A DNA stretch of 64,000 nt from Octopus vulgaris (GCA_951406725.2 OX597815.1:160828001-160892000), one strand, 5' to 3'. Counted from the stretch's first letter, positions 3,775 to 45,464 are shown. Notes: a model not told the origin generated them from the sequence alone. Numbers and translations are program-made.

Positions 3775-3888
3775 TATAGAGATTTATTATTGTATAAAAT
3801 GCTGTTATAATTAAGGGCATAGGCATGGTTTCCTGTATACCCTTAATTATAATTGTATTTTACACTACTCTAAATCTCTCTCTATATC
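3775..3888. mobile_element. Fold-back (inverted repeat) element remnant
   Basis: AGAGATTTA...TTATAATTAAGGGCATAGG / CCTGTATACCCTTAATTATAA...TAAATCTCT arms, short loop, adjacent to a TA-rich tract. Confidence 0.6.
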
Positions 3889-3899
3889 AATTCACCTTA

Positions 3900-4290
3900 A
3901 CAGGTGTATTTTATGTCCTTATATTTTCAAATAGGGGAGATAAGCACGTCCACCCAGCAAAGCCAGCATTCAGAGACTAGTTTCAGAGTTATTGCTCTTC
4001 ATCAGTCTGGAGTAGCTTGGCTTGCTAGCTGTCAATGCTTATTTGCAATTGAAAATTTATAGAATTTCAAGCGAAATGAATTCTGGATGCTGGCTTTGCT
4101 GGGTGTAGGTGCTTATCTCCCCTGTTTGGAAACTTAAGGACACAGAATGCTTGTGTCACTTAGCCAACTGTAAACAGTGTTTCCTGAGGTTAAATAGCAG
4201 CAGCATTCTTCCCTTTCATGGGACTGCCACATTAAGTTGGCAACAAACCATCACTTTATCATGCTGCTACTGTTTAAGTCTCTCTGAGAG
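3900..4290. mobile_element. Fold-back Penelope-like element derivative containing a hammerhead ribozyme
   Basis: Inverted arms about 3900-3974 and 4082-4156; hammerhead core inside left arm; one-sided tail to about 4290. Confidence 0.7.
3935..4050 (-). ncRNA. Minimal type I hammerhead ribozyme, intact core, GUC cleavage triplet
   Basis: Minus strand CCAGA-CTGATGA-AGAG(CAATAA)CTCT-GAA-ACTAGT-C-TCTG; palindromic helix III; helix I extends through AGC/GCT, AAGCC/GGCTT, ATAAGCA/TGCTTAT. Confidence 0.8.
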
Positions 4291-4467
4291 ATTTAGAAAT
4301 GCAATATTTCTAATTATATATATGTATGTATGTAGGTATGTATATTTCTGTATGCATATAATTAGAAAATGGAGAAAACCACAGATTAACCAACACATTG
4401 ATTGAACCACATTTATAGCTTATTTTTTAATACAAAGCATGACATAACAAAATAGGTGATGCAACAT

Positions 4468-4615
4468 ACCTATGTATGTATATATTTATGTATGTATATA
4501 TATTTAAGTATGTATATGTGTGTGTATATGTATATGTGTGTGTGCATATGTATATGTGTGTATGTATATGTGTGTGTGTGTATGTATATGTGTGTGTGTG
4601 TGTATGTATGTATAT
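4468..4615. repeat. (TATG/TG)n compound microsatellite
   Basis: Direct inspection. Confidence 0.9.
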
Positions 4616-5040
4616 CATGGAAACCTAATATTTGGATAAACGTTCAAAGACTAGATATCATACAATTTACAGATGAAAGAAAGTTCAAGGCTTGCATATC
4701 AATCGTATAGAAATCTAAGAGTCATGAAACATGTATGCTGAAATGATATACCATCAACTAAAGTTATATGCACTTATATTATTGAACTGTATACTTTCGG
4801 AAGCAATTAAAGTAATATCAATAATTAAGAACATGCATATATACATATATATATAAGTTTGTACTTGGATTCTGTACTTTTGACTCAACCTTTCAATATT
4901 TTGTGTCTTGATAGAAAAAGCAATGATTTAATGATAAAAATCTGTAGGGCATTAATTTGATATGAAATGAAGCATAAAGCTTCTTTACATTGCAATCATG
5001 TAAGTATACATTTAAATATCATGTTGTTTGTCAGAATTTC

Positions 5041-5084
<44 letters not shown>

Positions 5085-5236
5085 ATTCCTTATTATTAAT
5101 TGCTGTATTGGCTAAGTTGTTACTAGTTCTTTATGCACTGCTGAAGCCAACTTTGCCTTTCTTGCCTCCAGAGTCAATAAAATAAAATGCCAATCAAATA
5201 CTTGGGTTGATGTCAACAACTTACTCCTCTCCTTAA

Positions 5237-5562
5237 CCCATTAGCATTCATGCTACTCTGTGAAAATGTAATGCCTATTTATTCACATTGTGTTGAATTA
5301 ATCATGCAATATCTTCTAGCTGTGAGATTTTGGTTATATGATTCCTTTATTCTTTTGCATGTTTCAATCATTTGACTGTGGCCATGCTGGAGCATGGCTT
5401 TAAAGGTTTTTAGTCAAAGAAATTGACCCCAGGACTTATTCTTTGTAAGCCTAGTGCTTCTTCTATCGGTCTCTTTTGCCGAAGTACTAAGTTACAGGGG
5501 TGTAAACACATCAACAATGATCATCAAGCGATGGTGGGGGGGACAAACAGACACAAAGACAT

Positions 5563-5609
<47 letters not shown>

Positions 5610-5850
5610 TGATGAGCTTCTTTCAGTTTCCATTTACCAAATCCACTCACAAAATTTTGGTTGGCATGAGACTATAGTAAAAGACACTTGCCCAACGTGC
5701 CATGCAGTGGGACTGAACCTGGAGCCATGTGGTTAGGAAGCAAGCTTGTTACCACACAGCCATGCTTGTACCTTTTTTTTTTAGAATGACTTTGTAGGGT
5801 AGGTGTGAGCATAAAACAGGTAGATTATTTGGGCCAGATATGTTAAAGGT
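5237..5850 (+). mobile_element. piggyBac-type MITE family 1 interrupted by SINE A
   Basis: TTAA|CCCATTAGCATT start; body homologous to 22905-23125; split at 5346-5772. Confidence 0.65.
5346..5772 (-). mobile_element. SINE family A, near full length
   Basis: Reverse complement aligns along 49894-50380, including the internal (CA)n tract. Confidence 0.85.
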
Positions 5851-5892
5851 TTAAAAATGATAGCCTTGTGTCTAAATCAAAAAAACCAAGAG

Positions 5893-6100
5893 TATTGGAT
5901 TAGCAGAAGTGTTAGAGCATCAGACAAAATGTCTTGCAGTACTTTATCCATCTCCTTACATTCTGAGTTCAAATCATGCTGAGGCAAAATTCAGCTTTTG
6001 TCCTGCAAGGGTCAGTGAAGTATAGAATCATTGAACTATTGGAGTCGATGAGACCAACTTAACCCTTTAAATTGCTGGCCTTGTGCCTAAATCAGAAATA
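5893..6100 (+). mobile_element. SINE family B, decayed
   Basis: TTCTGAGTTCAAAT B-box; GGCCTTGTGCCTAAATCAGAAA tail as at 57401-57615. Confidence 0.65.
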
Positions 6101-6114
6101 ATTATTACAGGTAT

Positions 6115-6311
6115 TACCTTTAGCATTCAGCTTAACCTGTTTTGTATTAGCCTTGCATTATCTCATGGCTTTGATATTATGGTGACGTGACTTCTTATTT
6201 GTCAAATGACATTGTAGGGTCAGATTGAGAGGCCAGATCTGGCCCATTTTTGTAAAGGACCGGTAGAGTATTTGGGTCTGATATGGATGTTTTAAAAGCT
6301 AAATGTTTTAA
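6115..6311 (+). mobile_element. piggyBac-type MITE family 1, decayed
   Basis: CCTTTAGCATTCAG...GACATTGTAGGGT...GCTAAATG homology. Confidence 0.6.
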
Positions 6312-6830
6312 CATTTGCAATTTTCAATACTCTGTATTATCATTTTTTCTTTCTCCACATTCCTATTCTCTCCTCCTCTCCCTTATTGTCCATTCTCCTA
6401 CTCTCTTACACTTTCTTTCTTGCTCTCCCTCTCTCTCTTTCTCTTTCTGTCTTTCTCCTTATTTCCTCTATTATTCTCCATCTCTTGTCTCTTATCCTTC
6501 AGTTCTCTTTCCTACTTCATATAGATGTATCCTTAAATTACTACTTTCCTTCTCCATACTTTCTTTGTTTTACACATGCACACACAATAATACACTAACA
6601 TTGCTTTTGTTTTGTTTTTTTTTGTTTTTTTTTTCAATTTTTAATATTTTTGATAAGAATTGTTACATTTCATTATGCTTAGTCAAATTTAGTTCATCAT
6701 CTTGAAACAAGAAAACAAGAAATGTAATAATGTTTATGTTCAGGAGTGTTTCTCTTCAAATAAATATTAATTTTCTGTACAATTTATAAGACATATTTGT
6801 CTTCAGTCTTTGTCAAATTAAAATTACATA

Positions 6831-6883
<53 letters not shown>

Positions 6884-6888
6884 GTACG

Positions 6889-6931
<43 letters not shown>

Positions 6932-7064
6932 ACATAATCATTTGGTTTTAAGAATGTGATTATTTATTGTCATTTCATAGCAATAAAGAATTAGAAATCT
7001 TTAGTCTCAGAGCTTATGTTATGAAAATTCCTTAACTGTCCTCTCCTTTCAACCTCATTACTCA

Positions 7065-7277
7065 TATCGATTTCAAATTTTGGCACAAGGCCAGTAATTT
7101 TGACAAAGGGGTTAAGTTCGATTACATCTACCCTCAATACTCAACTGGTACTTAGTTTATTGACCCAAAAAGGCAAAGTTGACCTTGGCATAATTTGAAC
7201 TCGGTACATAAAGCCAGATGAAATGCTGCTAAGCATTTTGCCTGGTGTGCTCACAATTCTGCCAGCTTGCCACCTTA
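7065..7277 (-). mobile_element. SINE family B
   Basis: Reverse complement aligns to 57401-57615. Confidence 0.8.
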
Positions 7278-7374
7278 CACCTCATCACTGCTTTTATCAG
7301 TTTATACTTTGTCAATAATCTACACAAATAACAATCTTGTTGGTCAGTTTCTTGTTCAAGATATTCAGTGATTA

Positions 7375-7645
7375 ATTATTTCATTCATTCATTCACTTAT
7401 TCTTTTATTCCTTTATTCATTCATTCACTTATTCTTTTATTCATCTATTCTTTCATTTCTTTCTTTATTCTTTTATTCCTTCTTTTGTATTTTCATTCAA
7501 TCACTTATTCATTCACTTATTCTTTTATTCATCTATTCTTTCATTTCTTTCTTTATTCTTTTATTCCTTCTTTTGTATTTTCATTCAATCACTTATTCAT
7601 TCACTTATTCTTTTATTCATCTATTTTTTCATTCATTCATTCATT
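7375..7645. repeat. Cryptic (TTCA/TTCTTTTA)n repeat with internal ~95-bp duplication
   Basis: Block CACTTATTCTTTTATTCATCTATTCTTTC...TTCAATCACTTATTC occurs twice. Confidence 0.85.
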
Positions 7646-9078
7646 GTTGTAGTTGTTACATCCCCTTGTTTTCTATACTGGCACAGTATGGATAAGACTT
7701 GGCAAGGCTGACAACCTTTTTGATGCCAATCCTTTCTTGTTTCTCAAGTAAGGAATTTTATTCTGCCATTGCATGAGCCATCAAGCTGCTTGACCTTTTA
7801 CTTATATGGAACCTAAACATTGCTGTGGTCCTTCAGTTTTTCTAAGCCCTGTAAAAGAACTCCGAAAGTTGGTCCTTCAACCAGGTCTTTCATGATACCC
7901 TTACAGCCAGGAACTTTTCAGCTCTCCCCCATACAAAACATATACATAGCAGGTTTCCACACAGTTTCCATCAACCAAATTTCTTTCACAAGGTATTGGT
8001 GACTATAATACTAGACACATGGCTGAGGTGCCATGCAATGGGGCTAAACTTAAAACCACATGGTTGTGAATCAAACCTTTTTACCCTGCAGCCATGCTTG
8101 CACTTTGTTATTATTCCATATTCAAGTTATAGTAAAAGACTTAAAGTGGATTTCTCTATCAGGTTGGCTTTTGAAATCACAACTATTCTACTTGTTTTCC
8201 TCTTAATATTTGTTGCAACATTTCAGATTTCCTCTTTTCTAAATTAGGTGCCATTCGTTTTCTTGTAATCATTCTATCCCCAATCAGAATCCAATCCAGG
8301 AATTACATTAAACAGAAAAGCTCTCAATTCACTGAATGAACTTCAAAAAAAACCCATTCAACAGACAAGTTTCTTATTCTCTCATCCACTAATAATAAAA
8401 GTGATTCAGTTGAAGATGCAGTCATACTGACTACACAGCAGCTACTACAACTACTAGACTGCTGGGTAATTAGAATGTTTGAATGAATGAAACTAAGTTG
8501 TTAGGAAGCTCACTACATCCCTATGATTAGTGCATGGCATCATTTCATTCTATATAAACTATACCATCAGATAGTAACCAACAGTTCTTTGTACATGTAA
8601 CTTCGGTTTGTTTGTTTGTTTGTTATTTTTTTTTTTTTAATGGTACAGTAATCACGTGCTTTTATGGTAAATAAATGAGAATATTGGAATGATTTATCAT
8701 TGTAAAGAAGCTGCTGAGAATAATACTAATTCTAAAATCAATAGGCAGCTATCTAAAGTGCTTCTCTCACTCTAAGGATTAGCATTCTAAAGTATTTGGT
8801 TTCAAAACTTAAATGCTGAACAGTGAAGAAATCTGGTTTGTTGTAATAGCAAAGTTGAAGCTGTTAAAGGTTTATTTAATTGACTGAAATGAAAACTCTT
8901 TAATGCTATCATACTGAGTTAAACTAATGTAGTGGAAAGAAAACGCATATTTGTATATGAGTATTTGAAAGAGATAAATTTATTGATATCATCATTATTA
9001 TTATTATTATTTTTGTCATTGTCATCATTTTTATATCTGGTTTTCAATGCTTGCATGGGTTGGACAGGTATTCCTTAA

Positions 9079-9301
9079 CCCTTTTGTTACCATATTTCTT
9101 TTGAGATGCTCTGTGTTTCTTTCAATTAATTTTAAATATAACAAAGAATTTAGTAAAATAATTTAGTTATCATTTAACTAGTGTTACAAACATAAATTGT
9201 GACTAAGGTTTGGTGTAAGATTTTAATTCAGAACTTTTGATAACTAGACATTTATACTACAGAGCCAGAAGTGGTTTCAGCTGGGTTGATATCAAAAAGG
9301 C
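9079..9301 (+). mobile_element. piggyBac-type MITE family 2
   Basis: TTAA|CCCTTTTGTTACC...GATATCAAAAAGG; homologous to 10284-10436 and inverted 33772-33991. Confidence 0.75.
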
Positions 9302-9304
9302 TAA

Positions 9305-9420
9305 CACAGTATCTTGTCATTTGTTGTAATCATTTGTCATCTCCATCACAAGGTTCATTTTCATGAGATTGGCTTTCATCACTTTTTTCTTTCCATGTCT
9401 TTCTTGGTTTTCTTCCCCTG
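9305..9420 (-). pseudogene. RTE LINE ORF C-terminal fragment
   Basis: Minus strand reads RGRKPRKTWKEK, then after a frameshift VMKANLMKMNLVMEMTND, matching the RTE terminal GRPRKTW...DL...EMT.DR pattern. Confidence 0.55.
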
Positions 9421-10283
9421 AGAAAGACATGGGGAAGAGAATCCCATAGTTGCAAGCAGGGGTATTAGTTCTCTAAAAATTTTCCACCGTGCTTTTATTC
9501 TTGTCTATATGTCTCCAGAACACTCATCTCTGTTGCTAGTTAAGTCACATGAGTAAGAGACTCTGTCAAGAGTACCCTCTAGGGAAAATACAATGAGAAT
9601 ATCAGAGCATCTTATGTGTTCTGGATGTCAAAGCAGTGTGTTAGTGAGAATCGAGACATCATTGCAGGAGGACTTAATATTCTTTCCAGTGAGTATAAAG
9701 TCTTTTGGATTGCATTGGTAGATGATCAGATGGTTGGCTGGTTTCCTGAAGTCAGTGTTGCCAAGTGTTAGTTAGTTGCATCACAGATCTTCACTAACCT
9801 TGATCCCACTTCACTTCCTCATACTATAGCCATAGCCTCCTATTGTCCATTTACTCATAAATCAATTGCTGTAGTGCTTTCTCTACATAATTTCCCATCC
9901 ATTTAGATACAGGAGCTTTTGATGAAAAGAACTAAATTTTCAGTGCTGTAGTGGAACAAACTTCTTGGAGTGAAACAAACTTCAAACAACCTATGCACCA
10001 CTGCATTTCAAGAGAAAAGAATTACAAAAACAATCATTTGATGAGTCAAGGGGTTTTCTCACTTGGACATATGTTCCCACCTAGTCATCCCACAATCATG
10101 TACAGCATTAACAAGGTAATTTTTAGTCCTGTTTATACAATTAGTATTTGGTTTTTCTATTGCATAATTTTAAGTATCAGTCTCACACCCCTTTACTGAT
10201 GAACTGGGTGCATTTCATTGTACCACCTGCTCTACAGAGTTTGTCTATCAAGATTAAAATCTTCCCTATACTATAAGTTTTAA

Positions 10284-10436
10284 CCCTTTTGAGATGCTCT
10301 GTGTTTCTTTCAATTTTAAATATAAGAATTTAGTAAAAGAACATAAATTGTGACCAAGGTTTGGAGGAAGATTTTAATTTAGAACTTTTGAAAACAAGAC
10401 ATTTGAGACATTTCAGTCAGGTTGGTATCAAAAGGA
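10284..10436 (+). mobile_element. piggyBac-type MITE family 2, internally deleted
   Basis: TTAA flanks; homology to 9079-9301. Confidence 0.7.
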
Positions 10437-10599
10437 TTAATCTGAGATAGTGCTCCCCTAATCAAGTTGTGAGATTTACTGCTCTCTTAATAAACCTTAA
10501 TTAACAACAGGTCCCTCAATTGATTAGTTGACCATACCACAGTATGCCACAAGAATGAATTTGACTACACTTATAAAATCCTGTACCCAATGAAAATAA

Positions 10600-11290
10600 T
10601 CTTATGATGTATATTGACTACCATAAGAACCAAATGCACCCAGGTTATTGAATGGATGAAAATATAATTAGAAAAAACTAACAAAGTAAAATACAAATAT
10701 CATACCTAACCACAAAGTCATAGTTGAAATATATTATAAAAGTATGAAAATGTAAAAGAGCCTTCATGATGAAACAAAACCATGAACTAAAACGCAGAAT
10801 GTGGAAGTACGTGGCTTAGTGGTTAGAGCAGTGGACTCGCGGTCGAGGGATCATGGGTTCGAATCTCAGACTGGCCGATGTGCGTGTTTATGATTGAAGC
10901 TCCTAAGCTCCATGCAGCTCTGGCAGATGATAATGGTGAACTTCTTCTGACTCTTTCGCCACAACTTTCTCTCACTTTTTCCTCCTGCATCTAGCAGCTC
11001 ACCTGTGACGGACCGGTGTCCTGTCCAGGTGGGGAAACTATATGCCAAAGAAACCGGGAAACTGGCCCTTATGAGCCAGGCGTGGCTTGATGAGGAACAA
11101 ACAAAACCTAGAAAATACTTTTAACAATTAATGTAGAATATAAATTTCAATGCAAACTTGACAGCTATAATGTTCATGAATCAAACTGCTGCAATGAGCA
11201 TACAATACACCTCTATTGTTTGACTGAGCCTTTGTACATTTTGAACAACGAGCTATCTCAACACTCTACAATGTAGTTCATGCAACAAAA
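10600..11290 (+). pseudogene. Decayed Penelope-like element ORF (RT-EN linker plus GIY-YIG endonuclease), split by a SINE
   Basis: YHKNQMHPGY*MDENIIRK / NHKVIVEIYYKSMK before the SINE and TINVEYKFQCKLDS...NEHTIHLYCLTE after it; these resemble the NQM..NY..DE...IYYK...NVVY.F.C....C...YIG.T...L..RL pattern of PLE ORFs as I recall it; stops and frameshifts. Confidence 0.55.
10800..11104 (+). mobile_element. SINE family C
   Basis: A-box TGGCTTAGTGG, B-box GGTTCGAATC; aligns end to end with 47296-47597. Confidence 0.9.
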
Positions 11291-11746
11291 ATTGATAAAG
11301 AAGCATCAGTTACACTGAATTTTACAAAAAAAAGAATGAGAAGAGTATCGATGGAAGGTTTAGTAATGGAAAACACAGGAATATCATGCGTATGTGTAAT
11401 TAAGTATGAAAACTACTGGATTTGACTTAAATAAATTTTAAGTTTGGCATTTAAAAGAAAAAAAGAGGGAAAATCACCATGATGCTTTGCAAACTATTGC
11501 AAGACACATGAAAATAATCCATTCCACACTAGTTTTATTCTGAGAATGAAGCTAAGATAGCTTTTAAATGTTAGTAGGCAAATGGCCTTCAGAACACTAA
11601 TGTTCTGAATCAAACATAAAGGCTGGATAAAGAAATATGAAAAATCCTTAGTAAAAATAAAAGCTCAGTCATAATTGTTCCTTTGACATAATACATACAT
11701 ACATGTACACATATACGCACAGATACACATGCACACATATATATAT

Positions 11747-11981
11747 ATAAGAATTTTTTGGTAATAAGATAAAAAACCAAGGCTGTATAGATCTATACAG
11801 CCTTGGTTTTTTATGTTATAACGCAAAAAAATTCTTATATACACATAGAACCAATGTTGAACCCTTTATTCGCAATATTACCCGAATCTGGAACTTAACT
11901 ATGGTCTGTCTATAGCACTTATTCAGCATTACCTGACACCTTTGGGTTTCAACAACACCATTATCTCTTATAACCTCAACT
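11747..11981. mobile_element. Fold-back element (hairpin plus tail) in (TA)n, centre deleted
   Basis: 46-bp perfect palindrome 11769-11814 within ~45-bp arms; tail homologous to 36473-36620 and 45028-45142. Confidence 0.8.
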
Positions 11982-12496
11982 TATATATATATATAGAGAT
12001 GTGTATGTATATATATATAAATATATATAATTTTGGCAGTTTGCTTCATGAAATTTTGACATATACATATGTGTTTGTATATGTGTAAATATACATATAT
12101 ATGTACATGTAAGTGTGTATGTGTATATATGGTGATAATTAGAAACGCATCAGGAAATGATGGTAATGTATATTTTAGACATCTCTTCTAAAGAATGGCT
12201 ATGCTAATAATGATATAAATTCTATTAGCAGTAAATGTAATAAAAGGGTCTCATAACATCTATAAAATAGAATATAGATAGCTGTATAATTTTTAGCGAT
12301 ATCAGAAGTAATAACATAAGGAAGGGCATCTAATAACATAATATCTGCTTCTAAAGCTTATGCAAATATCTTCATTTGCATACTTGTTTATTATCTGTGT
12401 TCAAGGAAAAACTAATATGAATGTAAATAGAAAAGAGTAAAGAAAGTATTTATAATTAAATGTAATTTAAATTCATGATCCTCTGTGAATACATTA

Positions 12497-12897
12497 CAGT
12501 GATACCTCGCAGTATGAGTTTAATTCATTCCATGACTGAGCTCGTCTTATGATTTACTCATTTTACAAATCAATTTTCTCCATTGAAATTAACTAAACTA
12601 TAATTAATCCATTCCAGACCCCAAAATCCACTGAAAATAATTTTTTACGAGTTTTAAATCAGAAAAGATGTAGTTACAAGTAAAATGACAATTATAAAAA
12701 AAAAGAGAATGCAAACTGTAATTATAAAAAAGAGAATGTAAACTGGTTTTATTAACTGAATTACGTTAAAGATGGGATGATTAGTGTGTTCGTACTGCAG
12801 ATTTCTGCTCATACTTCAAAACAAAAATTCGCATGAATCTCTGCTCATACAGAAAATTACTTGTACAATGGTGCACTTATACTGCATGGTATATATG
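12497..12897. mobile_element. Tigger/pogo-type non-autonomous DNA transposon
   Basis: TA|CAGTGATACCTCGCAGTATGAGT ... ACTTATACTGCATGGTATATATG|TA imperfect TIRs with TA target duplication. Confidence 0.6.
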
Positions 12898-12900
12898 TAA

Positions 12901-12971
<71 letters not shown>

Positions 12972-13427
12972 TAGATGTGTATGTATGTATATATATTTTT
13001 TCTTGTTTTTCTTTTACAAAGTATTATGTGTCTGTTATAGGTATAGACATTTTGTGTATAGGAATGTTGATACATCTACACGATTTTTCTAATATATAAA
13101 ATTAATAAAGAAATAATTTCTGAAAGTATCAAATATCCATTAACCCTTAACTTTTAAATCATTGTTAATCACATATTATATAATTGTTTCTCAAAGTGGA
13201 TTTCAAGTTATTCCTAGTGTTCTTTTTCTTTTTCCACTGCCTTGAAGAATCTTGGTCAAATGAATCGGCCCCAATACTTATTAATTTTTATTTTTGTAAG
13301 GCCTGGTACTTATTCTGTTGGTCTTAAGTTACAGGGACATAAACACACCAACACCAGTTGTCAAGTGGTGGTTGGGGACAAATGCATACACAAAGACACA
13401 CACACATAGATTCATAGATGTGTGTGT

Positions 13428-17240: not shown

Positions 17241-17251
17241 ATGTTTAAGAG

Positions 17252-17488
17252 ATGAGGAATTTTGTACATTATTTGGATTTGATGCATATTTGTTCTCATC
17301 TTGTTTGTTGTTAACACAACGTTTCGGCTGATATACATTCCAGCCTTCATCAGGTGTCTTGAGGAAATTTCGAAACTGGGCTCGAAATTTCCCCAAGATA
17401 CTTGATGAAGGCTGGAGGGTACATAAGCTGAAATGCTGTGTTAACAACAAACAAGATGAAAACAAATATCCGTCAAATGTAAATAATG

Positions 17489-17490
<2 letters not shown>
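17252..17490. mobile_element. Fold-back Penelope-like derivative with a hammerhead motif on each arm
   Basis: ~110-bp inverted arms around loop AACTGGGC (about 17374-17381); short tail continues at 16880-16900 across the inserted SINE. Confidence 0.8.
17313..17358 (-). ncRNA. Minimal type I hammerhead ribozyme, intact core, GUU triplet
   Basis: GACAC-CTGATGA-A-GGCTG(GAATGTATAT)CAGCC-GAA-ACGT-T-GTGTT; palindromic helix III ACGU. Confidence 0.75.
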
Positions 17491-21771: not shown

Positions 21772-22186
21772 GATAAACGTGAAATTCTGTCTGTCCCTCT
21801 GTCCATCCAGGACTTTTGTATCTTGGTCTACATTTGTTCTACACAGACATATTATACCATTTTGGAATCATGATGATCCTAGGATTGAAAATCTGCCCTT
21901 CATTTGGTTCTTGAACATCCAGCATTGAGAACAAATCTAGATGAAGATTTGTTATATGCTAACAGTTGAAAGTTCAAATTTTAAAGGAACTCCAAAAACT
22001 TGTTAACTAACAAATTTTTCATTTAAACTGAATTTAAAGCAATACCATATTGGTAGGGTACCAATAAATGCTTTATTATCATTGCTTTCTTTAGTTTTGG
22101 GTTTCTGGCCCAATTAGCCCTCCACAGGAGCTAGCTTAAAAGTCTGCACTCCGTGCGAACTTTTAAGCTAGTATATATATTTATAT

Positions 22187-22386
22187 TTTTATTAAAGCTG
22201 AGAAAATCTTTAGAAAATCTTTACTCAGAGTTTCATGTTACCATTCATTGACAGTTACAACTAATCAACAAATGGTAATATGAATCACTAAATAACAGCT
22301 TGTGAATATTATTTTCAGCTTAATAAAAGCATATTAATCTACCTTCGGTAGTTGAGTATTATTTCTTCCACCTTGTTTTGCATTTA
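22187..22386. mobile_element. Fold-back remnant with degenerate hammerhead motif
   Basis: TTTTATTAAAGCTGAGAAAAT / ATTTTCAGCTTAATAAAA arms plus tail; minus strand 22221-22254 CAATGA-ATG(GTAA)CAT-GAA-ACTCTGAGT-A. Confidence 0.5.
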
Positions 22387-36005: not shown

Positions 36006-36195
36006 GCCGTGGGGTTGCCAAATAGGTTGCAAGACAAGGACCTCTCAGCTAAGAAAGGAAACTAAGAGAAGTGACTGAGTACCGAGTGAGAGGCTGGAAT
36101 ATGATAGGACAAGGTTAGCTGTCTTACTACAGAGGAGATACAGCACCAGCACATGTGCTTTATACATGGCACCATATATATACATATATACATAT

Positions 36196-36330
36196 ATCAT
36201 CATCATCATTGTTTAACATTTGCTTTCCATGCTAGCATGAGTTGGACGATTTGACTGAGGACTGGCGAACCAGATGGCTGCACCAGACTCCAATCTGATC
36301 TGGCGGATTTTCTACAGCTGGATGCCCTTC

Positions 36331-36331
<1 letters not shown>
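36196..36331 (-). mobile_element. Truncated RTE 3' end
   Basis: Reverse complement of 31030-31165. Confidence 0.8.
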
Positions 36332-36360
<29 letters not shown>

Positions 36361-36369
<9 letters not shown>

Positions 36370-36620
36370 TTTTTTGTGTAATGAGATTAAAAAAACCAAG
36401 GCTGTATAGATATGCTCTAATATCTATACAGCCTTGTTTTTTTTTTATCTCGTTACACAAAAAATTCATATATACACATACTGGCATAGAACCAACGTTG
36501 AACCTTTTATTCGCAACATTACCAAATCTAGAACTTAACTATGGTCTGTCAATAGCACTTATTCAGCATTACCTGACTCCTTTGGGTTTCAATGACACCA
36601 TTATCTCTTATAACCTCAAA
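36361..36620. mobile_element. Fold-back element (hairpin plus tail) in (TA)n
   Basis: ~52-bp arms around GCTCTA loop; tail nearly identical to 11840-11981. Confidence 0.85.
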
Positions 36621-38641
36621 TGTATATATATATATATATATATATGGATTGACCTTGTATATGCACCTATATGTACTGGCTTGAGCAAAGTATTTTTGTG
36701 GAACACAAACAGGTGGTCATAAAGAACTACTCTCTTTCCATGCCACAAATGTTGTCTTATGCAAAGGCTTTTCTAAAAAGCTACAATAGCTTGTTGCCAT
36801 TGTTACTGCAGGCATTGTCATCAAGATACAGAGAACCAATGTAGATTCTGCAAGGTATTTCACATGATGTTCTAACAGTCCCACAACCTCCTGCCCTGGC
36901 TTAGTTATTTTGAGATGAACCCCCAAAAGCTTGAAAGGCAATATTGATCTTGGCAACATTCAGAGCTTAGACAGTCAGAACAAATACTGCAAAGAAATTC
37001 TGCCCAATGTTCTGATGACCAGAGAAAAATGTTGTCTAACTCCTACTATGTTTTTCTAATTACCACATTTCCCACTGCTGTGGTTATTTTGGATGTTTGG
37101 AGAAATAAACACAAACTCACTGTTTTGATTATACATGGAAAAGTTAATAGCTGATAAAAAATCATGAAACAAATATTAATGCTGTTTCACATGAATATAC
37201 AATTAACAATATTAATCTTTGTATATTTTACTATTATTTTTATTTATCTCTATTCAAAAATTGATACATATTTATATGATTCTTTTATTATGATAACATT
37301 TGTGACAATGTTATTATATATATATTTGATATTTCCCAAACTTTCTGTATATATATATAGACAGCACCACTAATAACTGTTATCATTGTCTAATATCTAT
37401 TTACAATGATTGGATTGAAGCAAACATTAGAGTATTAGAATATTTGAATAAATACTCATTTATACACGTTTTTCTAGTAATTTCAAGCAATGTATTTCAC
37501 ATTTGTGCATATACGTATGAACACATACAAAAGCAAATACATATCATTAATTATATCTCTTATAGATTAACCATTGAAGTAGATATGTAGTAAATAAAAA
37601 TACATGCATAAAATAGTAACTACAGACATTTAGCTGTATGCATTCAGGCAGATGAAAATAATGTAGGAGAGCTTTCCTTTGAATTAGTAACCCCAAGATA
37701 ATAACATCAAACTAAAATAAATTACAAAAATCATAAAGCAACCACTTATAAATATGTCACATTGTCCCAAAGTGACTATAACGGTTAAGTTAGTTTACTA
37801 TCAGTAAAATGTAATCCCCTGTTAAATGTCCATTTCAAGCAGAAGTTATTGGCTTTTCTGTTTCATACCATTCCCAATCTCTCATATTCTTTAATACCAT
37901 GATGTCACAAGAGGATAGTAATTTTATGCTATTTTAATGCATATTTCAATTTTAACAAGCTAATTTTGTAGCTTTAAGTATCTTTTGCATGGGAAAGCAA
38001 TTATAGTTAGTTAAGCTCTTTGAAGTTAATATTACTTGATGTAGTCTTGTCACAAAGGAGGAACGAATAAAGAGAAAAAAAGGAAATGAGGAATGCATAA
38101 ATTTTTAAATGATTTTTGTCATATCATTTTCAACAGGTATCAGACTGAAATATATCGATGTCATTAGACAAATGTTAAAAACAAGATAATAATAACATCT
38201 TAAAAATTTAATAATGCAACTACTCTAATTTATTATCTCATGTACAAGAAAATAATTAATAAAAAATATTGCATAACTGGAATTTGTACCGGAGACATTC
38301 AGATTTAACTATAAAAATAACAAGCCATTGAGGGAGCATATACATAGTTATTCAACTGACTAGAAATAGCGACCAAATATTACTGACATCACAATGTACT
38401 GTCTCAAAAAAGGATGCCAATGCATTGGTTAATGTGATGTGAAGTGTCTGTGATCTCAGTTGGAATGCTTTTGATAATGTTTTTTTTTGGTCAGAGTTGG
38501 TGGGACGTCAACAAGATCAATTATTTAAATAACTTTATATTATAATAATTGACTCTATAGTAGAGTATGGCATGAAAAATCTTGAAGACTTAACTCAGAA
38601 TTTGTCAGTTTAACATATTTATAATAAATCTTGTTTGATAA

Positions 38642-38884
38642 TTTCGTTTTTGGATTTGGTTTGCAAGATTCTTTATGTGAGTTCGTGTGTTGAAGCATAT
38701 TCTGTTGTATCTGGGGAGAGTCATTTTCATTTTGTGCCTTATAATTTAACACATTCACTGGTAAAAATTCCACTTATTTCTTATTTCAGGAAAATAAAAA
38801 TAAGAAATAAGTGGAAATTTTACCAGTGAGTGTGTTAGATTATAAGGCACAAAAAGAAAATGACTCTCCCCAGACACAACAGAA
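38642..38884. mobile_element. Fold-back element with 12-bp TSD
   Basis: Arms 38701-38786 / 38797-38882; tail 38642-38700; CTTGTTTGATAA at 38630-38641 and 38885-38896. Confidence 0.8.
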
Positions 38885-38959
38885 CTTGTTTGATAAAGCA
38901 TTCATTAAATAATCTACAATATAAAAACCAATGCTTGAAAGACCAAACACTCAGGCTAC

Positions 38960-39534
38960 TGAATGTTATAATACTCTATCAAATCTAATGCTTATTTATT
39001 CACAGGGTTTTGAATTAATCACATAATATCTCATAGCTTTGAAATTTCTATGATGTAGTTTAGTTTTAGAATGACATTGTAAGGTAGGTGTGACAGGTTG
39101 GATCTGGTTGGTTTGAACATAAAACAGGTAAAGTATTCAGGCTCAATATTGCTCAATATGAAATGCTATAGGGTTAAGGATAAAATATGAAAATCAGCCT
39201 TAAAAGATATTTATTTACAGTTTTGAAAAAGAGTTCATTTGAGAAATGTTTAACGTTTACTTTTTTGCATTTTGCTTTATCAGAATAATTATAAAAAAAA
39301 AATTGTAGCTTTAACTTTTTAGCATTTAAACTAGCCATATCCAGCCCAAATATTCAACCTGTTATATATTGAAAACAGCTAAATCTAGCCTCTCACACCT
39401 ATCCTACAATGTAATTCTAAAAATAAACAGTCGTATCATCAAAATCTTGGTGATACAAGATAATGCCTGATTAATTCAAAGAAATGTGACTAAATAAGCT
39501 CTATATGTGACAGAGAAATCTAAATGTGATTGGG
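38960..39534. mobile_element. Two inverted piggyBac-type MITE family 1 copies (about 38960-39173 +, 39315-39534 -)
   Basis: GGG|TTAA ends; mutual reverse-complement homology. Confidence 0.7.
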
Positions 39535-41462
39535 TTAAGGTAGTTTATTTGAGAACTGTATTTGCTGTTTTTATTATGCTACATCAGAATTGCTATTTTA
39601 GGGTAAAAATAAGAAGTAAAATGGTCTTGAAAAAATTTATTTACAGCTTGAAAATGGGTTTTATTGAGAAACATATACCATTTACTTTTTTTTTCTTATC
39701 ACACTATCACAAAATAACAAAGCATGCAAGATATAAGTGTATTTGCTTACAAAAGTAATAAAGATGTATTTTAGGGAATAAAGACATACATAAAAACTTA
39801 AAATAGTTTCTTTACCAAATACAGTGTTTCTTAAATTCTCACATTATTTTTCCATTTCTGTCAACACAAACATAAACATTCCAAACAAAGAGTTGAAAAT
39901 TGGATAGTCATGCTTACCTCCCTTTTTTTGCCTTAACCCTTTTGCTTCACAAGACCAGCATGTAAAATCCAACCTTTCAATCCCTTGATTATTTAAGTTT
40001 ATACTAAAAAAAAAAAGAAGGAAACTATTCAATAATAAGAGAATTTAAAGAACGGAAGTATTCAATAAGCTATTTCACTTTTTTGCACATGTCTTCAATA
40101 TCATATCTCTGCAATACATTATTATCATTCTTTCTATTTACTTTACTGATTTGTCTGTGTCACATCCCAGCTCCATCTCGCAGCTTAGAGGTGCAACACT
40201 TTCTTCAACACATGAGTTGTTCTAAGTATTGCTGCCATCTGAATACTTCCTAAGAAATATTCACATGGCCAACTTTCCCCTATGAAAAATGCTCCCAGCA
40301 CTTCTATACCACCCTTTTCCTGAATAGCCACCTCAGGCACCAGCACCCTGCACACTCGTCAGGATGAAGAGGTTCAATCACTCATTACAGATTAGCTACT
40401 CAGATATGAGTTAATGCCATCCCTGCTGATGACTGGACTCAGACAAATGTTACTACTCTCAGTCAGTGTAGGCCTGGAAACAATAGTAGCTAAGGAGTGG
40501 TTCCACACTTCTCAAAACCATGGAATTCCTGAACCAGGGTCTCACAGCCAGAGGCAGTTTAAAATCATACCCAGCACACAAATACTAAATAATCTATGAA
40601 AATTACACTAATGTATAGCAACTGTTTTAAAACCACTGCCAAAATACATCTAACATGCCTCTGATATTCAAAAGTTAATTAAAAGACAAGTAGAATGTTA
40701 TATAATAATCAACATTATTATCTATAATATTATTTCTGTTATTTTGTAAAGAAATGGTTTCTAATTATTTGCTCTTATTATTCCTCATTGATTGGTGAAT
40801 TTCCCTTCTCGCTTTAACTTCCAAAGCATATTAGCTCACAGTTCAAGCTATTGATTTTGTAACCCCACTTAAATCATTATATTCTATTTATCAATTTATT
40901 TGCCATTGACAAATTAATCTTTCCCTCTAACCCCTTTATTTATCTCTCTCTGCTATTTTATTTCCTTCTTTCTCTCTCTCTCATTCTCTCTCTGTTCCCC
41001 CCTCTCTCTCTCTCTTTCTTTTCATCTCTTTCTAGAACTAACACTTTGACATTGTATTGTTGCAGTTAAAATATTAATGAATCAAACATAATGAAATCAT
41101 CATTATTACACTGAAAATATAAAAATCATCTTCTCTCCATGCTTCTCTATATGGACATCATCATTCTCATTATCATCATCATAGCAATCATTATGACTAT
41201 TATTGTTATCATAGCTTTTGAGTTTGTTTGTTTTTTTACCTTTTTCAACTATTCTCATCCTTTAATTCATTCTTATCTGTTTCCTCATCAGCAGGGTGAT
41301 GACATTAAATTAGGGGAGTATCCCTCACCACCTCCACTACCACCATCGTCATCATCATCATTATCACCATCGTCATCATCAATAAGTCCCCAGATCTTTA
41401 CTGGCATTAATATCAATATTAAGTATTAATTATGCAAGTAAGACTTGGTAAGGAAATGCAAA

Positions 41463-41465
<3 letters not shown>

Positions 41466-41508
<43 letters not shown>

Positions 41509-41770
41509 ATATATATATATATGTACATGTATATATATATATGTACATGTATATATATATATGTACATGTATATATATATATATATATGTACATGTATAT
41601 ATATATATGTACATGTATATATATATATGTACATGTATATATATATATGTACATGTATATATATATATGTACATGTATATATATATGTACATGAATATAT
41701 ATATATGTACATGTATATATATATATGTACATGTATATATATATGTACATGTATATATATATGTATATAT
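41466..41770. repeat. ~20-bp minisatellite (ATGTACATGTATATATATAT)n
   Basis: Almost pure purine-pyrimidine alternation, about a dozen units. Confidence 0.95.
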
Positions 41771-41777
41771 TATCATC

Positions 41778-41816
<39 letters not shown>

Positions 41817-41984
41817 ATTGTATATGTAATTGTATATATTTCCTTCCTTGTTCTTATCAACATGGAGGAACAAAATTGCTTTTAAACACTGCAGCAAAAA
41901 TATTTTTTATTTGTTTTATTGGTAGTCTAGTCTAGGTAACATTTTGAAATCTTATCTTATATTTATTTATTTTTATTTTTGTAG

Positions 41985-42092
41985 GACTGCATTCATCATT
42001 GGATGTTTTTTAAATTGATGACAAGATTCACATACCAATATGTTTCATATATTCTCCTTCCTCCTTCAACTGATGTGATCTAATAACATTAG
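41985..42092 (+). other. Candidate 108-nt non-coding exon (copy 1)
   Basis: Long T-rich tract + TGTAG| acceptor, AG|GTAAGT consensus donor; stops in all three frames. Confidence 0.4.
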
Positions 42093-42332
42093 GTAAGTAC
42101 TGCACTTACTTCTGATAGACACTGGGGGATTTTGTATTTTTGTTGTTGTTGTTGTTTCGCTTTATATATCATCTTTGATATTTCAGGCCTTAAAACTTAT
42201 ATCTAGAAATATTGAAACCTCCCAGCACCAACTATATATGTACATGTATATATATATGTACATGTATATATATATATATGTACATGTATATATATATGTA
42301 CATGTATATATATATATGTATATATTATCATC

Positions 42333-42364
<32 letters not shown>

Positions 42365-42536
42365 ATAATTGTATATGTAATTGTATATATTTCCTTCCTT
42401 GTTCTTATCAACATGGAGGAACAAAATTGCTTTTAAACACTGCAGCAAAAATATTTTTTATTTGTTTTATTGGTAGTCTAGTCTAGGTAACATTTTTGAA
42501 ATCTTATCTTATATTTATTTATTTTTATTTTTGTAG

Positions 42537-42644
42537 GACTGCATTCATCATTGGATGTTTTTTAAATTGATGACAAGATTCACATACCAATATGTTTCAT
42601 ATATTCTCCTTCCTCCTTCAACTGATGTGATCTAATACCATTAG
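42537..42644 (+). other. Candidate 108-nt non-coding exon (copy 2)
   Basis: Duplicate of 41985-42092 with both splice sites preserved. Confidence 0.4.
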
Positions 42645-42978
42645 GTAAGTACTGCACTTACTTCTGATAGACACTGGGGGATTTTGTATTTTTGTTGTTG
42701 TTGTTGTTTCGCTTTATACATCATCTTTGATATTTCAGGCCTTAAAACTTATATCTAGAAATATTGAAACCTCCCAGCACCAACTACACCATTATGAAGT
42801 GGTAGTAATAGCAGGAAGGGTAGTTGTGTTGTTGGTAAAAGAAGGTGTAGTTTTGTTGATCGATGAACTAATGGTAGTCTTTGTGGTATCATCACTATTG
42901 ATGAGGAATATAATCGACAATGTCTGCAACATCAGTCAAATATTTTCAACCCTATTCAGATCTCACTTACATATTTGA

Positions 42979-43301
42979 CCCTTTAGCATCCAGGTTACGC
43001 TGTCAAAATTAAACTCTGTCAAATTAAGCTCTGTCAAATTAAACTCTTTAGCATTCAGTTTACTCTGTCAAATTTAACCCTTTAACATTGAGATTACTGT
43101 GTCAAATGTAATGCATATTTATAAACAATGTTTTAAATTAATCATGCAATATCTCATAGATTTGTTTGTCATTTCGAAAATAGACAATCACATTATCAAA
43201 ATCTCAATGTAAAGGAGGTGTGAGAGGTCTAGTCTGGCTACTTTGAACATAAAGCCTGTAGAATATCAGTGCCAGATATGGCCAGTTTAGATGCTAAAGG
43301 G
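42979..43301 (+). mobile_element. piggyBac-type MITE family 1 with stuttered left end
   Basis: Complete unit 43078-43301 preceded by reiterated CTTTAGCAT...CTGTCAAA blocks. Confidence 0.7.
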
Positions 43302-43502
43302 TAAAAACATCTTCTTCCATCACTGAAAAGCTAATCCCAATAAAAAAAAAAATCGTTGCTACATTGTTCAGGTTACACCAGTAAAATTGTATCATGGTTT
43401 CTGGAATTGGAGGAGATTTTCCTCCTTATAAATATTTTCATTTATTTCCTTCATTCACAATCTTGCAATCAAGACAATGCCACTTCTGTATCCTCTATTT
43501 CT

Positions 43503-43912
43503 CTCTCTTGAGAGAGGGGCACATGTCATGGGTGTTAGCTTTTTTTTCATTCTTCATTGCATAGCAACTTTGTAAACATGTTTATGAACTCTTTTCAAAG
43601 GTCTGCTGTCAGCAACAAATCAGCTACAACAATGAAATTAGTTTTCCTGTTGCATCTCATTGTACAGCTTAGCAAGGGTTTGATTAGGAGAATTCTCAAT
43701 CATTGTTATATTTCAGAAGAGTCATGTAATTAAAACCCGTAAACAGGCTCACCAGCTGTTCTTTGCTCCCAACACTTTCCACTATGCTGTTTTTCTGTGG
43801 CCCTTTCAATGAGTAGAGATTTCTAAACCCAAATTATTTGAAAGCTTTTACTATTGAAAAGACCACAGAGTGGTATTGTAAAAAATTTGGTGTAAAGAGA
43901 TAGAATATAGAA
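43503..43912 (+). repeat. Dispersed ~410-bp direct duplication, copy 1
   Basis: Highly similar to 46640-47050. Confidence 0.95.
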
Positions 43913-44133
43913 AAACAACAACCAGTTTGGTTGTGTAAAGTTTCTAATCTTATAACTCCTCCAAAACATAACAATATTGGTTGCAACATATGGTGTCTAA
44001 GAAGTTTGCTTCCTAACCACTTGGTTCCAGGTTCAATTCCACTGCATGGTGCTTTGAGGGAGTGTCTTCAGCTATAGCACCAGGTTCACTAAAGCCCTGT
44101 GAGTGGATCTGGCCAATGGGAACTGAAAGAAAC

Positions 44134-44188
<55 letters not shown>

Positions 44189-44420
44189 AAAAGGGTTTTG
44201 TATGATTGTGTATAGCAGGATATATATCATTCAAAGAAATTCCAACTCTGTCTGTTTTCTATGTTTCTATGTTTTCTATGTTTATATTCTTTATAATATT
44301 AATATAAAATATATAGTATAAATAATATATATATAGTAAAATGAAATGAAGTATTGATTGTCTTATTGAATAGATGAAATATTGAATATAAAATATTAGG
44401 GGACTAGTATACTTTCTTGC

Positions 44421-44453
<33 letters not shown>

Positions 44454-44614
44454 CCAATTAAGGACTGAACACGAAAAAGTTGACAGTCAACATGCTAGAT
44501 ATAGACATCAAATCGCCACTCTCCACAAAAGATTATATATATATATATAAAAATTAACAGAATGAGATTAAAAAATCCAAGGCTGTAAATAGTTTTTAGA
44601 ACATTTATAAAGAG

Positions 44615-44662
44615 GTCTCACTGCTGTTTCCGGGATATTTTATATATCCTTTCATCTGAGAC
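44615..44662 (-). ncRNA. Decayed minimal hammerhead (left arm)
   Basis: GTCT-CAGATGA-A-AGGATAT(ATAAA)ATATCCC-G-GAA-ACAGCAGT-G-AGAC; U4>A and G17 are likely inactivating. Confidence 0.55.
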
Positions 44663-44896
44663 AGTGCAGGAAAATGGTTAAGTAATAGTCATTATAGAGA
44701 AGATATGAAATACAGAGTAAAGTGGAGGAATGAAAACAGAAATGAGGAAACTTATATATACACACCATTCTGCTTAAATAATGGAACTGCAAATATGTGA
44801 ATCCTTATGTAAATCACGTCTATTTTCATTCCTCCACTTCACTCTGTATTTTATATTTTCATTATAATAACTATCACTTAAACATTTTCCTGCATC

Positions 44897-44944
44897 GTCT
44901 CTGATGAAGGGATATATAAAATATCCCGGAAACAGCTGAAAGAC
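44897..44944 (+). ncRNA. Minimal type I hammerhead (right arm), U16.1 mutated
   Basis: GTCT-CTGATGA-A-GGGATAT(ATAAA)ATATCCC-G-GAA-ACAGCTGA-A-AGAC. Confidence 0.65.
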
Positions 44945-45464
44945 ATTCATTCTCTTTATAAATGTTCTGAAAACTATTCACAGCCTTGGATTTTTAATTT
45001 CATTCTGTTAATTTTTATATATATATACATGCTAATACACGACCTACATTGGACTCCTCATTCATATCACTATCGAACCTGGAGCTTAACTATAGTCTGT
45101 CCATAACACTTACTCTTCTTGACACCAATACCTCTCATGTCCTATATATATATATATATATATATAAGAATATATGAATCTATGAGTGTGTGCATGTGTT
45201 TTTTGTCCACTACTGCCTGCCTAACAACTGGTATTGGTTTGTATATGTCCCTATAACTTTGCTGTTCAGCAAAAGCGACCAATAGAATAAGTACCAGGCT
45301 GAAAAAAGTAATTGGTACTGGGGTCAATTTGCTTGACTAAATACTTGAAGGTGGTTTGGCATGGTCACAGTCTAATGAGTGAAGCAAGTTGAAGATGAAA
45401 GACGACTAGATTCAAAATATTCTAAATCACATATACCAAATATTCAGTAATCCTAGTTGGACTG

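What the first reader, a model, noticed from the sequence alone, without database searches (positions are those of the whole stretch)
3775..45142. Several families of fold-back, hammerhead-bearing elements that sit in microsatellites
Seen: about eight elements share a long inverted repeat, usually with a one-sided tail (3775-3888, 3900-4290, 11747-11981, 17252-17490, 22187-22386, 36361-36620, 38642-38884, 44547-45142). They belong to at least five unrelated sequence families and most lie in or beside (TA)n. Four carry CTGATGA-stem-GAAA-palindrome motifs, and each family has a different helix II and helix III (ACTAGT, ACGT, ACAGCTGT, ACTC-T-GAGT). Established: Penelope-like elements carry minimal type I hammerheads in their pseudo-LTRs, often insert with an inverted terminal copy and a tail, and such minimal ribozymes cleave as dimers. 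Inference: these are ORF-less fold-back PLE derivatives at about one per 8 kb, able to yield self-cleaving RNA and long dsRNA hairpins from either strand. Whether they are independently mobile, or already catalogued in this genome, cannot be seen here.
Basis: partly seen in the sequence, partly recalled or inferred. Interest (0 to 1): 0.8.

Follow-up and report, generated by a model that had tools for sequence, protein, structure and literature searches.

The report
Fold-back stubs of Penelope retrotransposons
The eight short hairpin-shaped repeats are real and are most likely the truncated, dead-on-arrival ends of Penelope-like jumping genes, a pattern already described for this class, and only two of them still carry a complete hammerhead ribozyme motif.

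Summary
All 8 inverted repeats are real (arms 74-94% alike). They fall into 6 unrelated families, 7 of 8 have a one-sided tail, and 6 of 8 abut (TA)n against 0.7 expected. Only 2 of 8 (B, D) have a complete minimal hammerhead. H's two copies are decayed, and E lacks CTGATGA. The anatomy (head-to-head inverted copy, tail, a 12-bp target duplication at G, TA targeting) is the published insertion pattern of Penelope-like elements (PLEs). The evidence points to one-off truncated insertions rather than a mobile hairpin family. Family B shows 13 different fold junctions among the rows listed from public assemblies. The C/F/H tails diverge mostly at synonymous sites, as expected for the start of a PLE ORF. 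No link to an RT/GIY-YIG protein was found. Folding predicts that the hairpin sequesters the ribozyme, so 'self-cleaving from either strand' is not supported. No RNA run was laid, so expression and editing are untested. This scan noted the same class before in two other genomes. New members of a known kind; low interest.

The parts
3772..3885 (.). Element A: fold-back, arms 50 nt, 78%, loop 14; no hammerhead, little or no tail; multi-copy family
   Evidence: (5-26 contigs per run at the listed variant places; X2 contig matches 3745-3978 with 0 differences)
3906..4304 (+). Element B: inverted copy 3906-4081 (minus sense, carries the hammerhead), direct copy from 4082, tail to about 4304, then TA-rich DNA
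3971..4009 (-). Complete minimal type I hammerhead of B: core at 4005, helix II 4 bp, palindromic helix III ACTAGT, GUC triplet, predicted cut between 3975 and 3974
   Evidence: no majority variant listed in the core among the 40 of 132 rows shown
11738..11981 (+). Element C: fold-back (centre 11791/11792) plus tail, between (TA)n tracts; same family as F (83%), related to H
11882..11980 (+). C tail, open frame after a 1-nt indel; likely the start of a PLE ORF
   Evidence: 5 synonymous and 1 non-synonymous difference to F over 32 codons, p 0.004
17248..17490 (-). Element D: arms 109 nt, 86%, loop 8; tail of about 17-20 nt on the left; right end runs into a TA-type microsatellite
17313..17358 (-). 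Complete minimal hammerhead of D: core at 17353, bulged A after the core, G10.1-C11.1, palindrome ACGT, GUU triplet; the right-arm copy (about 17400-17442, +) is decayed
22176..22386 (+). Element E: oldest-looking fold-back (74%), tail of about 45 nt, left end at (TA)n
22218..22251 (-). E half-motif: short helix II, GAAA and ACTC-T-GAGT, but no CTGATGA core
36354..36622 (+). Element F: fold-back (loop 36414-36419) plus tail, inside (TA)n; no hammerhead
36477..36620 (+). F tail, 48-codon open frame shared with C and H; likely the start of a PLE ORF
   Evidence: no protein homologue found
38642..38884 (-). Element G: arms 87 nt, 94%, loop 11; 58-nt tail on the left; no hammerhead; not in (TA)n
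38630..38641 (+). 12-bp target site duplication of G, left copy (right copy at 38885-38896)
44535..45142 (+). Element H: arms about 210 nt, 87%, loop 78, tail to 45142, inside (TA)n; longer relative of C/F that reaches the hammerhead
44897..44944 (+). H right-arm hammerhead remnant: core intact, U16.1 missing
44615..44662 (-). H left-arm hammerhead remnant: core changed, G at position 17
45028..45141 (+). H tail, open frame homologous to the C/F tail
   Evidence: pS 0.47, pN 0.20 against F over 23 codons, p 0.027

Best explanation
These are most likely one-off, 5'-truncated insertions of several families of autonomous Penelope-like retrotransposons, each made of a short direct copy of the element's end (pseudo-LTR plus tail) joined head-to-head to an inverted copy. 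Shown here: the hairpins, the one-sided tails, a 12-bp target duplication at G, TA-flanking, two complete minimal hammerheads, outer ends at homologous places in C, F and H, and variable fold points. Inferred mechanism: the RT/GIY-YIG protein nicks both strands of an AT-rich or (TA)n target. Each nick would prime reverse transcription at one of two preferred internal sites near the start of the ORF, which would give one short-tailed arm and one long-tailed arm. Both cDNAs would stop early and be joined at their 5'-truncated ends. The hammerhead is a passenger, present only when truncation spares it, and is predicted to be locked inside the hairpin. The copies then decay neutrally; any transcript through them would form dsRNA.
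For: Anatomy matches published PLE insertions: adjacent inverted pLTR, tail, 8-10 bp target duplications, head-to-head palindromes, and a tail that codes the first residues of the ORF (PMC3846280 passages). An inverted 5'-truncated copy, tail and (TA)n bias are described in PMC8557442 (passages). Opposite-strand pairs of minimal hammerheads 100-700 bp apart are described in the same passage of PMC4209133 that attributes scattered motifs to truncated PLEs. B, D, E and H, the four with an orienting motif, are all head-to-head. D meets three PLE min-HHR marks named in PMC4209133 (bulge after position 9, G10.1-C11.1, palindromic helix III). Family B is abundant in three organisms: 2184-3527 contigs laid per run on 3745-4460, a count that includes a second repeat at 4345-4460. 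In all 4 runs 24-37 contigs end at 4259 and continue into (TA)n. Of 32 listed pieces, 14 end at 4254-4260 and 6 run on to 4301-4304. Of the 27 joint rows shown (152 in all), 15 are fold-back type and give 13 distinct junctions. C, F and H end at homologous places, while the fold lies 5, about 8-14 and more than 160 nt upstream of a shared anchor. C vs F tail: 5 synonymous and 1 non-synonymous over 32 codons, p 0.004, with no excess in the two other forward frames. F vs H: pS 0.47, pN 0.20, p 0.027. Two-strand cleavage and two internal RT start sites about 111-118 nt into the ORF were shown in vitro for an anole PLE (PMC11167929).
Against: No arm or tail was linked to an RT or GIY-YIG protein: five protein searches with the C/F/H tail found nothing meaningful, and 0 of 106 window frames hit a relevant Pfam family. 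A and G have no hammerhead and no coding signal, so their PLE origin rests on anatomy alone. The codon signal covers only 23-32 codons. The 12 proximal C/F codons show 0 synonymous and 3 non-synonymous differences, and two reverse-strand frames of F/H also reach p about 0.04. The C and F fold points differ by only 12 nt, as a deletion in one shared master hairpin could also give. One B junction (4055 to 4181, run X4 only) has depth 264 against about 50 for single-copy contigs, so it may be multi-copy. 125 of 152 joint rows were hidden, joints at 80% likeness on a two-armed reference can be misread, and the 4304 end coincides with where the tool skips a repeat. The two-nick model is an inference; self-priming is the published alternative.
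Confidence: 0.8

Rival explanations
1. Some of the hairpins (C/F type above all) are independently mobile, non-autonomous fold-back retroelements, copied as whole units by PLE proteins in trans.
For: C and F have nearly the same fold point and identical distal ends. One B junction shows about 5-fold depth in one run. Non-autonomous PLE derivatives exist: MRC1 and tandem retrozymes. PLE termini can mobilise unrelated sequence in trans.
Against: 13 distinct B junctions among the rows shown, each in one contig per run where counted. The synonymous bias between C and F implies separate coding masters. H, of the same lineage, folds more than 150 nt further upstream.
Confidence: 0.12
2. Same PLE origin, but the inverted arm arises by self-priming (snap-back) of the cDNA or an antisense template, not by two target nicks.
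For: Proposed in print from palindromes at head-to-head junctions (PMC3846280 passage). Loops are short (2-14 nt) in 6 of 8 elements.
Against: B and H have loops of 107 and 78 nt, and several B junctions carry extra letters or gaps between the arms. In vitro a PLE protein cuts and extends both target strands. The two arms end at different distances into the tail in 7 of 8 elements.
Confidence: 0.35
3. They are MITE or Foldback-type DNA transposons with TA target sites.
For: Long inverted repeats, no ORF, and TA flanks.
Against: In 7 of 8 the element ends are not inverted repeats of each other (5-10 of 25 matching letters; A 18 of 25). The one-sided tail, the 12-bp duplication at G, the hammerheads and the variable fold points do not fit. 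A alone could still be one.
Confidence: 0.03
4. The palindromes are assembly or amplification artefacts.
For: Inverted PLE structures are known to trouble short-read assemblies. No listed contig spans the whole laid stretch.
Against: Arms differ by 5-22% substitutions per site, with 46 transitions and 32 transversions in all. The same hairpin occurs at two loci (C, F). G has a target duplication. A contig of run X2 spans palindrome A and B's left arm with 0 differences, though X2 may be the source sample.
Confidence: 0.01

Closest known systems
Complex insertions of endonuclease-positive Penelope-like elements: pLTR, adjacent inverted pLTR, tail, target duplication (PMC3846280; PMC8557442 Fig. 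2 legend)
   Same: Head-to-head inverted copy, one-sided tail that likely codes the first ORF residues, target duplication where the target is not a microsatellite, 5' truncation that varies per copy.
   Different: Here truncation is extreme (114-610 bp, no ORF body), and some tails are longer (up to about 140-155 nt) than the 30-40 bp usually quoted. No full-length parent was seen.
Minimal type I hammerheads of metazoan PLEs (PMC4209133)
   Same: CUGAUGA and GAAA core, helix I of 4-5 bp, palindromic helix III, a bulge after position 9 in D, and pairs on opposite strands a few hundred bp apart.
   Different: B lacks the bulge and has A-U at 10.1/11.1 in this copy. H has an extra A.G apposition and is decayed. 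These particular families matched no Rfam model.
(TA)n-targeting PLE clades Naiad, Hydra and Neptune (PMC8557442)
   Same: (TA)n at the ends. The 17 nt at C's fold point equal the first letters of two near-identical coral Naiad consensus sequences.
   Different: Naiads are reported to lack canonical hammerheads. The starts of the three Octopus Naiad consensus sequences, read by eye, do not resemble these elements, and 9 of 11 window motifs searched in that supplement had no match; the two that matched share the same string. The clade cannot be assigned without the ORF.
Non-LTR retrozymes (PMC7229834; bioRxiv 10.64898/2026.07.22.740005)
   Same: ORF-less, PLE-related, type I hammerhead, 170-400 nt size range.
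   Different: Retrozymes are head-to-tail tandem units with canonical hammerheads that give circular RNA. These elements are head-to-head, single, and carry minimal or decayed motifs.

Membership tests
EN+ Penelope-like element insertion | RT plus GIY-YIG endonuclease ORF in the parent element | tested here: inconclusive
   No ORF in the window. Tail peptide searches were empty. Whole genome not held. A codon signal in the C/F/H tail suggests an ORF start.
EN+ Penelope-like element insertion | Adjacent inverted 5'-truncated copy, head-to-head | tested here: met
   8 of 8 inverted; orientation can be read and is head-to-head in B, D, E and H.
EN+ Penelope-like element insertion | One-sided tail | tested here: met
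   7 of 8. Family B has a recurrent tail end at 4259.
EN+ Penelope-like element insertion | Target site duplication or microsatellite target | tested here: met
   12-bp duplication at G; (TA)n on both sides of C, F and H; none found for A, B, D or E at >=7 nt. TA adjacency 6 of 8.
EN+ Penelope-like element insertion | Hammerhead motif in the pLTR | tested here: met
   Complete in B and D, remnants in H and E, absent in A, C, F and G.
EN+ Penelope-like element insertion | Variable 5' truncation among copies | tested here: met
   13 distinct junctions among 27 of 152 joint rows for B; C, F and H differ. Not tested for A, D, E or G.
Minimal type I hammerhead ribozyme | Intact core, helices I-III and NUH triplet | tested here: met
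   B and D only.
Minimal type I hammerhead ribozyme | Self-cleavage as monomer or dimer | not testable with these tools
   Folding predicts sequestration in the D hairpin and mispairing in B. No raw RNA reads were listed.
Non-LTR retrozyme | Head-to-tail tandem units, each with a hammerhead | tested here: not met
   No tandem array at any of the eight elements.
MITE / Foldback DNA transposon | Terminal inverted repeats at both ends | tested here: not met
   7 of 8 fail; A is symmetrical.
Naiad clade | N-terminal GIY-YIG, CxC motif, RT | not testable with these tools
   No ORF available. Only a 17-nt terminal match of C to two coral Naiads.

The most novel reading that the evidence does not exclude
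A subset of these hairpins (C/F type, with fixed ends and a nearly fixed fold at a Naiad-like start motif, and the one high-depth B junction) has become a self-standing class of non-autonomous fold-back retroelements that PLE proteins copy as whole units. At about 3.6% of this window they would be a large built-in source of dsRNA for editing and small-RNA pathways, and their junctions would be a fossil record of two-site internal priming by PLEs.
Probability: 0.12. Interest if true: 0.55.

Novelty: new member of a known kind. Interest (0 to 1): 0.2.

Why it matters
As a class it is ordinary: the structure, the minimal hammerheads and the TA bias are all in print for PLEs. Three modest uses remain. 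(1) Annotation: such stubs are easily filed as MITEs, miRNA hairpins or unknown repeats. (2) Mechanism: how PLEs make the inverted copy and tail is still open, and a genome with many such fossils (fixed outer ends, variable fold) allows the two-nick and self-priming models to be compared by counting junctions. (3) The eight elements cover 2301 of 64000 bp, 3.6%, and would form dsRNA if transcribed, which could matter in an animal with heavy A-to-I editing; this is untested.

Tried and rejected
No whole genome is held, so no genome-wide scan was possible. Rfam: 0 hits at gathering level; only sub-threshold hits, mostly miRNA hairpin models, over B, D and H, rejected as generic hairpin matches. 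My first descriptor missed D because it allowed no bulge after the core; corrected. D-family patterns found 0 matches in metagenome, viral and prokaryote contigs. Tail peptide searches: no hits; one E 1e-4 hit to an unrelated repetitive protein, rejected; Atlas best score 0.78 with low recognition, rejected. Pfam on 106 frames (104 chosen by length and complexity, 2 added): 3 weak hits below cut-off. The idea that direct copies begin at the hammerhead cut site: true for this B copy (4082), but of 13 junctions shown only one other starts at 4082 (letters between unknown) and one starts 6 nt upstream, so it is not supported as a rule. No RNA holder was listed among the runs, which says nothing about expression. 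The 'ends' count was wrong through a script bug and was redone. No look-alike earlier findings by place or sequence. Literature: a search for octopus + Penelope + hammerhead listed 4 of 5 papers, none describing such elements by title or abstract. A search with 'twin priming' gave one unrelated review. The O. vulgaris repeat paper has 0 occurrences of hammerhead or ribozyme in its main text; its supplement was listed but not read and may bear on whether these families are catalogued. The paper on dimeric cleavage of small PLE hammerheads was not held, so that point rests on PMC4209133 and recall. The host being an octopus is recalled from the look of its SINEs and microsatellites and comes from no call.


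Full report
Setting. The window is AT-rich animal DNA (GC 29-39%), full of microsatellites and dispersed repeats. None of 106 tested frames hits a relevant Pfam family. No whole genome is held. That the host is an octopus is my recollection from the look of the repeats and comes from no call. Five coded organisms hold part of a test stretch.

Observation. All eight inverted repeats are real, with arm scores of 45-288 against shuffle maxima of 19-27 and identities of 74-94%. A scan with microsatellites masked recovers them, E only weakly. Seven have a one-sided extension. C and F are one family (83%), H is a more distant relative, and the other 25 of 28 pairs do not align above shuffles, so there are six families. 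Six of eight have an end at (TA)n, against 0.74 expected and 4 of 35 for other repeats; by ends, 9 of 16 against 0.77. The set was chosen by eye, so this is partly post hoc.

Hammerheads. A descriptor that allows the PLE bulge finds two complete motifs in the window, in B and D; 11 of 200 shuffles give one and none gives two. D shows the marks listed for PLE minimal hammerheads in PMC4209133: a bulged base after position 9, G10.1-C11.1, and a palindromic helix III (passages). H has a remnant in each arm, each broken differently, and the quoted ACAGCTGT is a composite of the two. E has the GAAA/helix III half but no CTGATGA. A, C, F and G have none. Rfam does not see any of them. Folding predicts long hairpins on both strands for all eight, but in the whole D transcript helix I and helix II drop from about 1.0 to 0.0. 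In B, helix I is at most 0.01 alone or in context, and the sense motif exists on one strand only. So dsRNA from either strand is plausible, but self-cleavage from either strand is not supported. Published in vitro activity of such motifs is nil as monomers and low as dimers, and the anole motif needed protein.

Not an artefact and not a MITE. Arms differ by 5-22% substitutions per site, the same hairpin occurs at two loci, and a contig of run X2 spans A and B's left arm with no difference (X2 may be the source sample). In 7 of 8 the ends are not inverted repeats of each other.

One-off insertions or mobile hairpins? Two tests favour one-off insertions. First, contigs of four runs from three organisms were laid on 3745-4460 at 80% likeness. 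Each run gave 2184-3527 contigs, a count that includes a second repeat at 4345-4460. In all four runs 24-37 contigs leave the B tail at 4259 and go on in (TA)n. Of 32 listed pieces, 14 end at 4254-4260 and 6 run on to 4301-4304, where the tool stops at the window's own TA tract. Of 27 joint rows shown, out of 152, 15 are of fold-back type and give 13 different junctions, one contig per run where counted. Against this reading: one junction has about five times single-copy depth in run X4, most rows are hidden, and joints on a two-armed reference at low likeness can mislead. No majority variant is listed in B's catalytic core among the 40 of 132 rows shown, and one listed variant (3970) would add a helix I pair.

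Second, the tails of C, F and H share one open frame. C and F differ by 5 synonymous changes and 1 non-synonymous change over 32 codons (p 0.004), with no excess in the other forward frames. F and H give pS 0.47 and pN 0.20 over 23 codons (p 0.027). The 12 proximal C/F codons show 0 synonymous and 3 non-synonymous changes plus a 1-nt indel, and two reverse frames of F/H also reach p about 0.04. This suggests that C and F came from different masters whose tail was under coding constraint, as it would be if the tail is the start of a PLE ORF. That arrangement is in print for rotifer and anole PLEs. No protein search linked this frame to an RT, so the link to an autonomous parent is inferred, not shown. 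The three copies end at homologous places, while the fold sits 5, about 8-14 and more than 160 nt upstream of a shared anchor.

Mechanism. Shown: hairpin, tail, target duplication or TA flanks, head-to-head orientation in B, D, E and H, fixed outer ends and a variable fold. Known from papers: a PLE protein nicks and extends both strands of AT-rich DNA and starts reverse transcription at two internal sites near the ORF start (PMC11167929). Inferred: two nicks prime at the two sites, both cDNAs stop early and are joined, which leaves a short-tailed inverted arm and a long-tailed direct arm. The published alternative is self-priming on an antisense template (PMC3846280); I rate it at about 0.35 given PLE origin. 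B's direct copy begins exactly at the predicted cut site, but the other junctions shown do not cluster there, so I do not claim in vivo cleavage.

Comparison. The pattern is the typical PLE insertion: inverted pLTR, tail and 8-10 bp duplication (PMC3846280, passages); inverted 5'-truncated copy, tail and (TA)n bias (PMC8557442, passages); opposite-strand pairs of minimal hammerheads 100-700 bp apart and scattered single motifs attributed to truncated PLEs (PMC4209133, part 1 of 4 of its main section); and a curation guide lists inverted pLTRs and extensions (PMC8969392, passages). They are not retrozymes, which are head-to-tail tandems (PMC7229834, passages; bioRxiv 10.64898/2026.07.22.740005, part 1 of 5). 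A lead on clade: 17 nt at C's fold point equal the start of two near-identical coral Naiad consensus sequences in the PMC8557442 supplement, while the Octopus Naiads there start differently and Naiads are said to lack canonical hammerheads. If the host is O. vulgaris or a relative, PLEs are already annotated in bulk: 31 families with 336 recent insertions and an old expansion (PMC13282606, part 1 of 3). That paper's main text does not mention hammerheads, and its supplement was not read. The searches showed no description of these particular families. Two earlier notes of this scan reached the same class verdict in other genomes. My reading was recorded before I saw them, and they are not independent support.

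Verdict. Real, partly overstated, and ordinary in kind: new members of a known class, interest 0.2. The boldest reading not excluded is that a subset has become independently mobile hairpin retroelements (probability about 0.12, interest 0.55 if true). Expression, editing and cleavage were not tested.

Noticed in passing
window 1-289: Two copies of a SINE-like repeat in inverted orientation around (AT)23, 91% complementary over 112 nt; further copies at 10799-11103 and 47295-47599. Would also form dsRNA.
   Followed up: no
window 38966-39523: Inverted pair of a dispersed repeat (arms about 96 and 56 nt at the best diagonals), not PLE-like by anatomy.
   Followed up: no
window 41680-42786; 43497-43915 and 46635-47052: A 560-bp tandem duplication at 97.7% and a 419-bp direct duplication at 96.4% about 3.1 kb apart; recent duplications or assembly haplotigs.
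   Followed up: no
window 11793-11809: The 17 nt at C's fold point equal the 5' start of coral Naiad_Amil and Naiad_Anas in the PMC8557442 supplement.
   Followed up: partly
window 4082 and 3974/3975: B's direct copy starts exactly at the predicted hammerhead cut site; not a rule among the other junctions shown.
   Followed up: partly
window 4191-4277: A second hairpin inside B's tail; the stretch 4201-4248 draws the highest summed contig depth in 3 of 4 runs and is among the highest in the fourth.
   Followed up: no
window 4283-4310 and 3874-3885: The end of B's tail shares 12 nt with A's outer arm, in inverted orientation; chance or a shared terminal motif.
   Followed up: no
window 4345-4460: Another abundant repeat begins right after B and continues beyond the laid stretch, with its own strand-switch joints near 4420-4460.
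   Followed up: no
window 22131-22171: A small 41-bp palindrome (arms 19 nt, loop 3) directly left of E, across a short TA run; possibly another very short stub.
   Followed up: no
window 44750-44790: H's loop, read on the plus strand, has a short frame ending in a stop just upstream of the right arm; it might be the last codons of the parent ORF, but this is by eye only.
   Followed up: no
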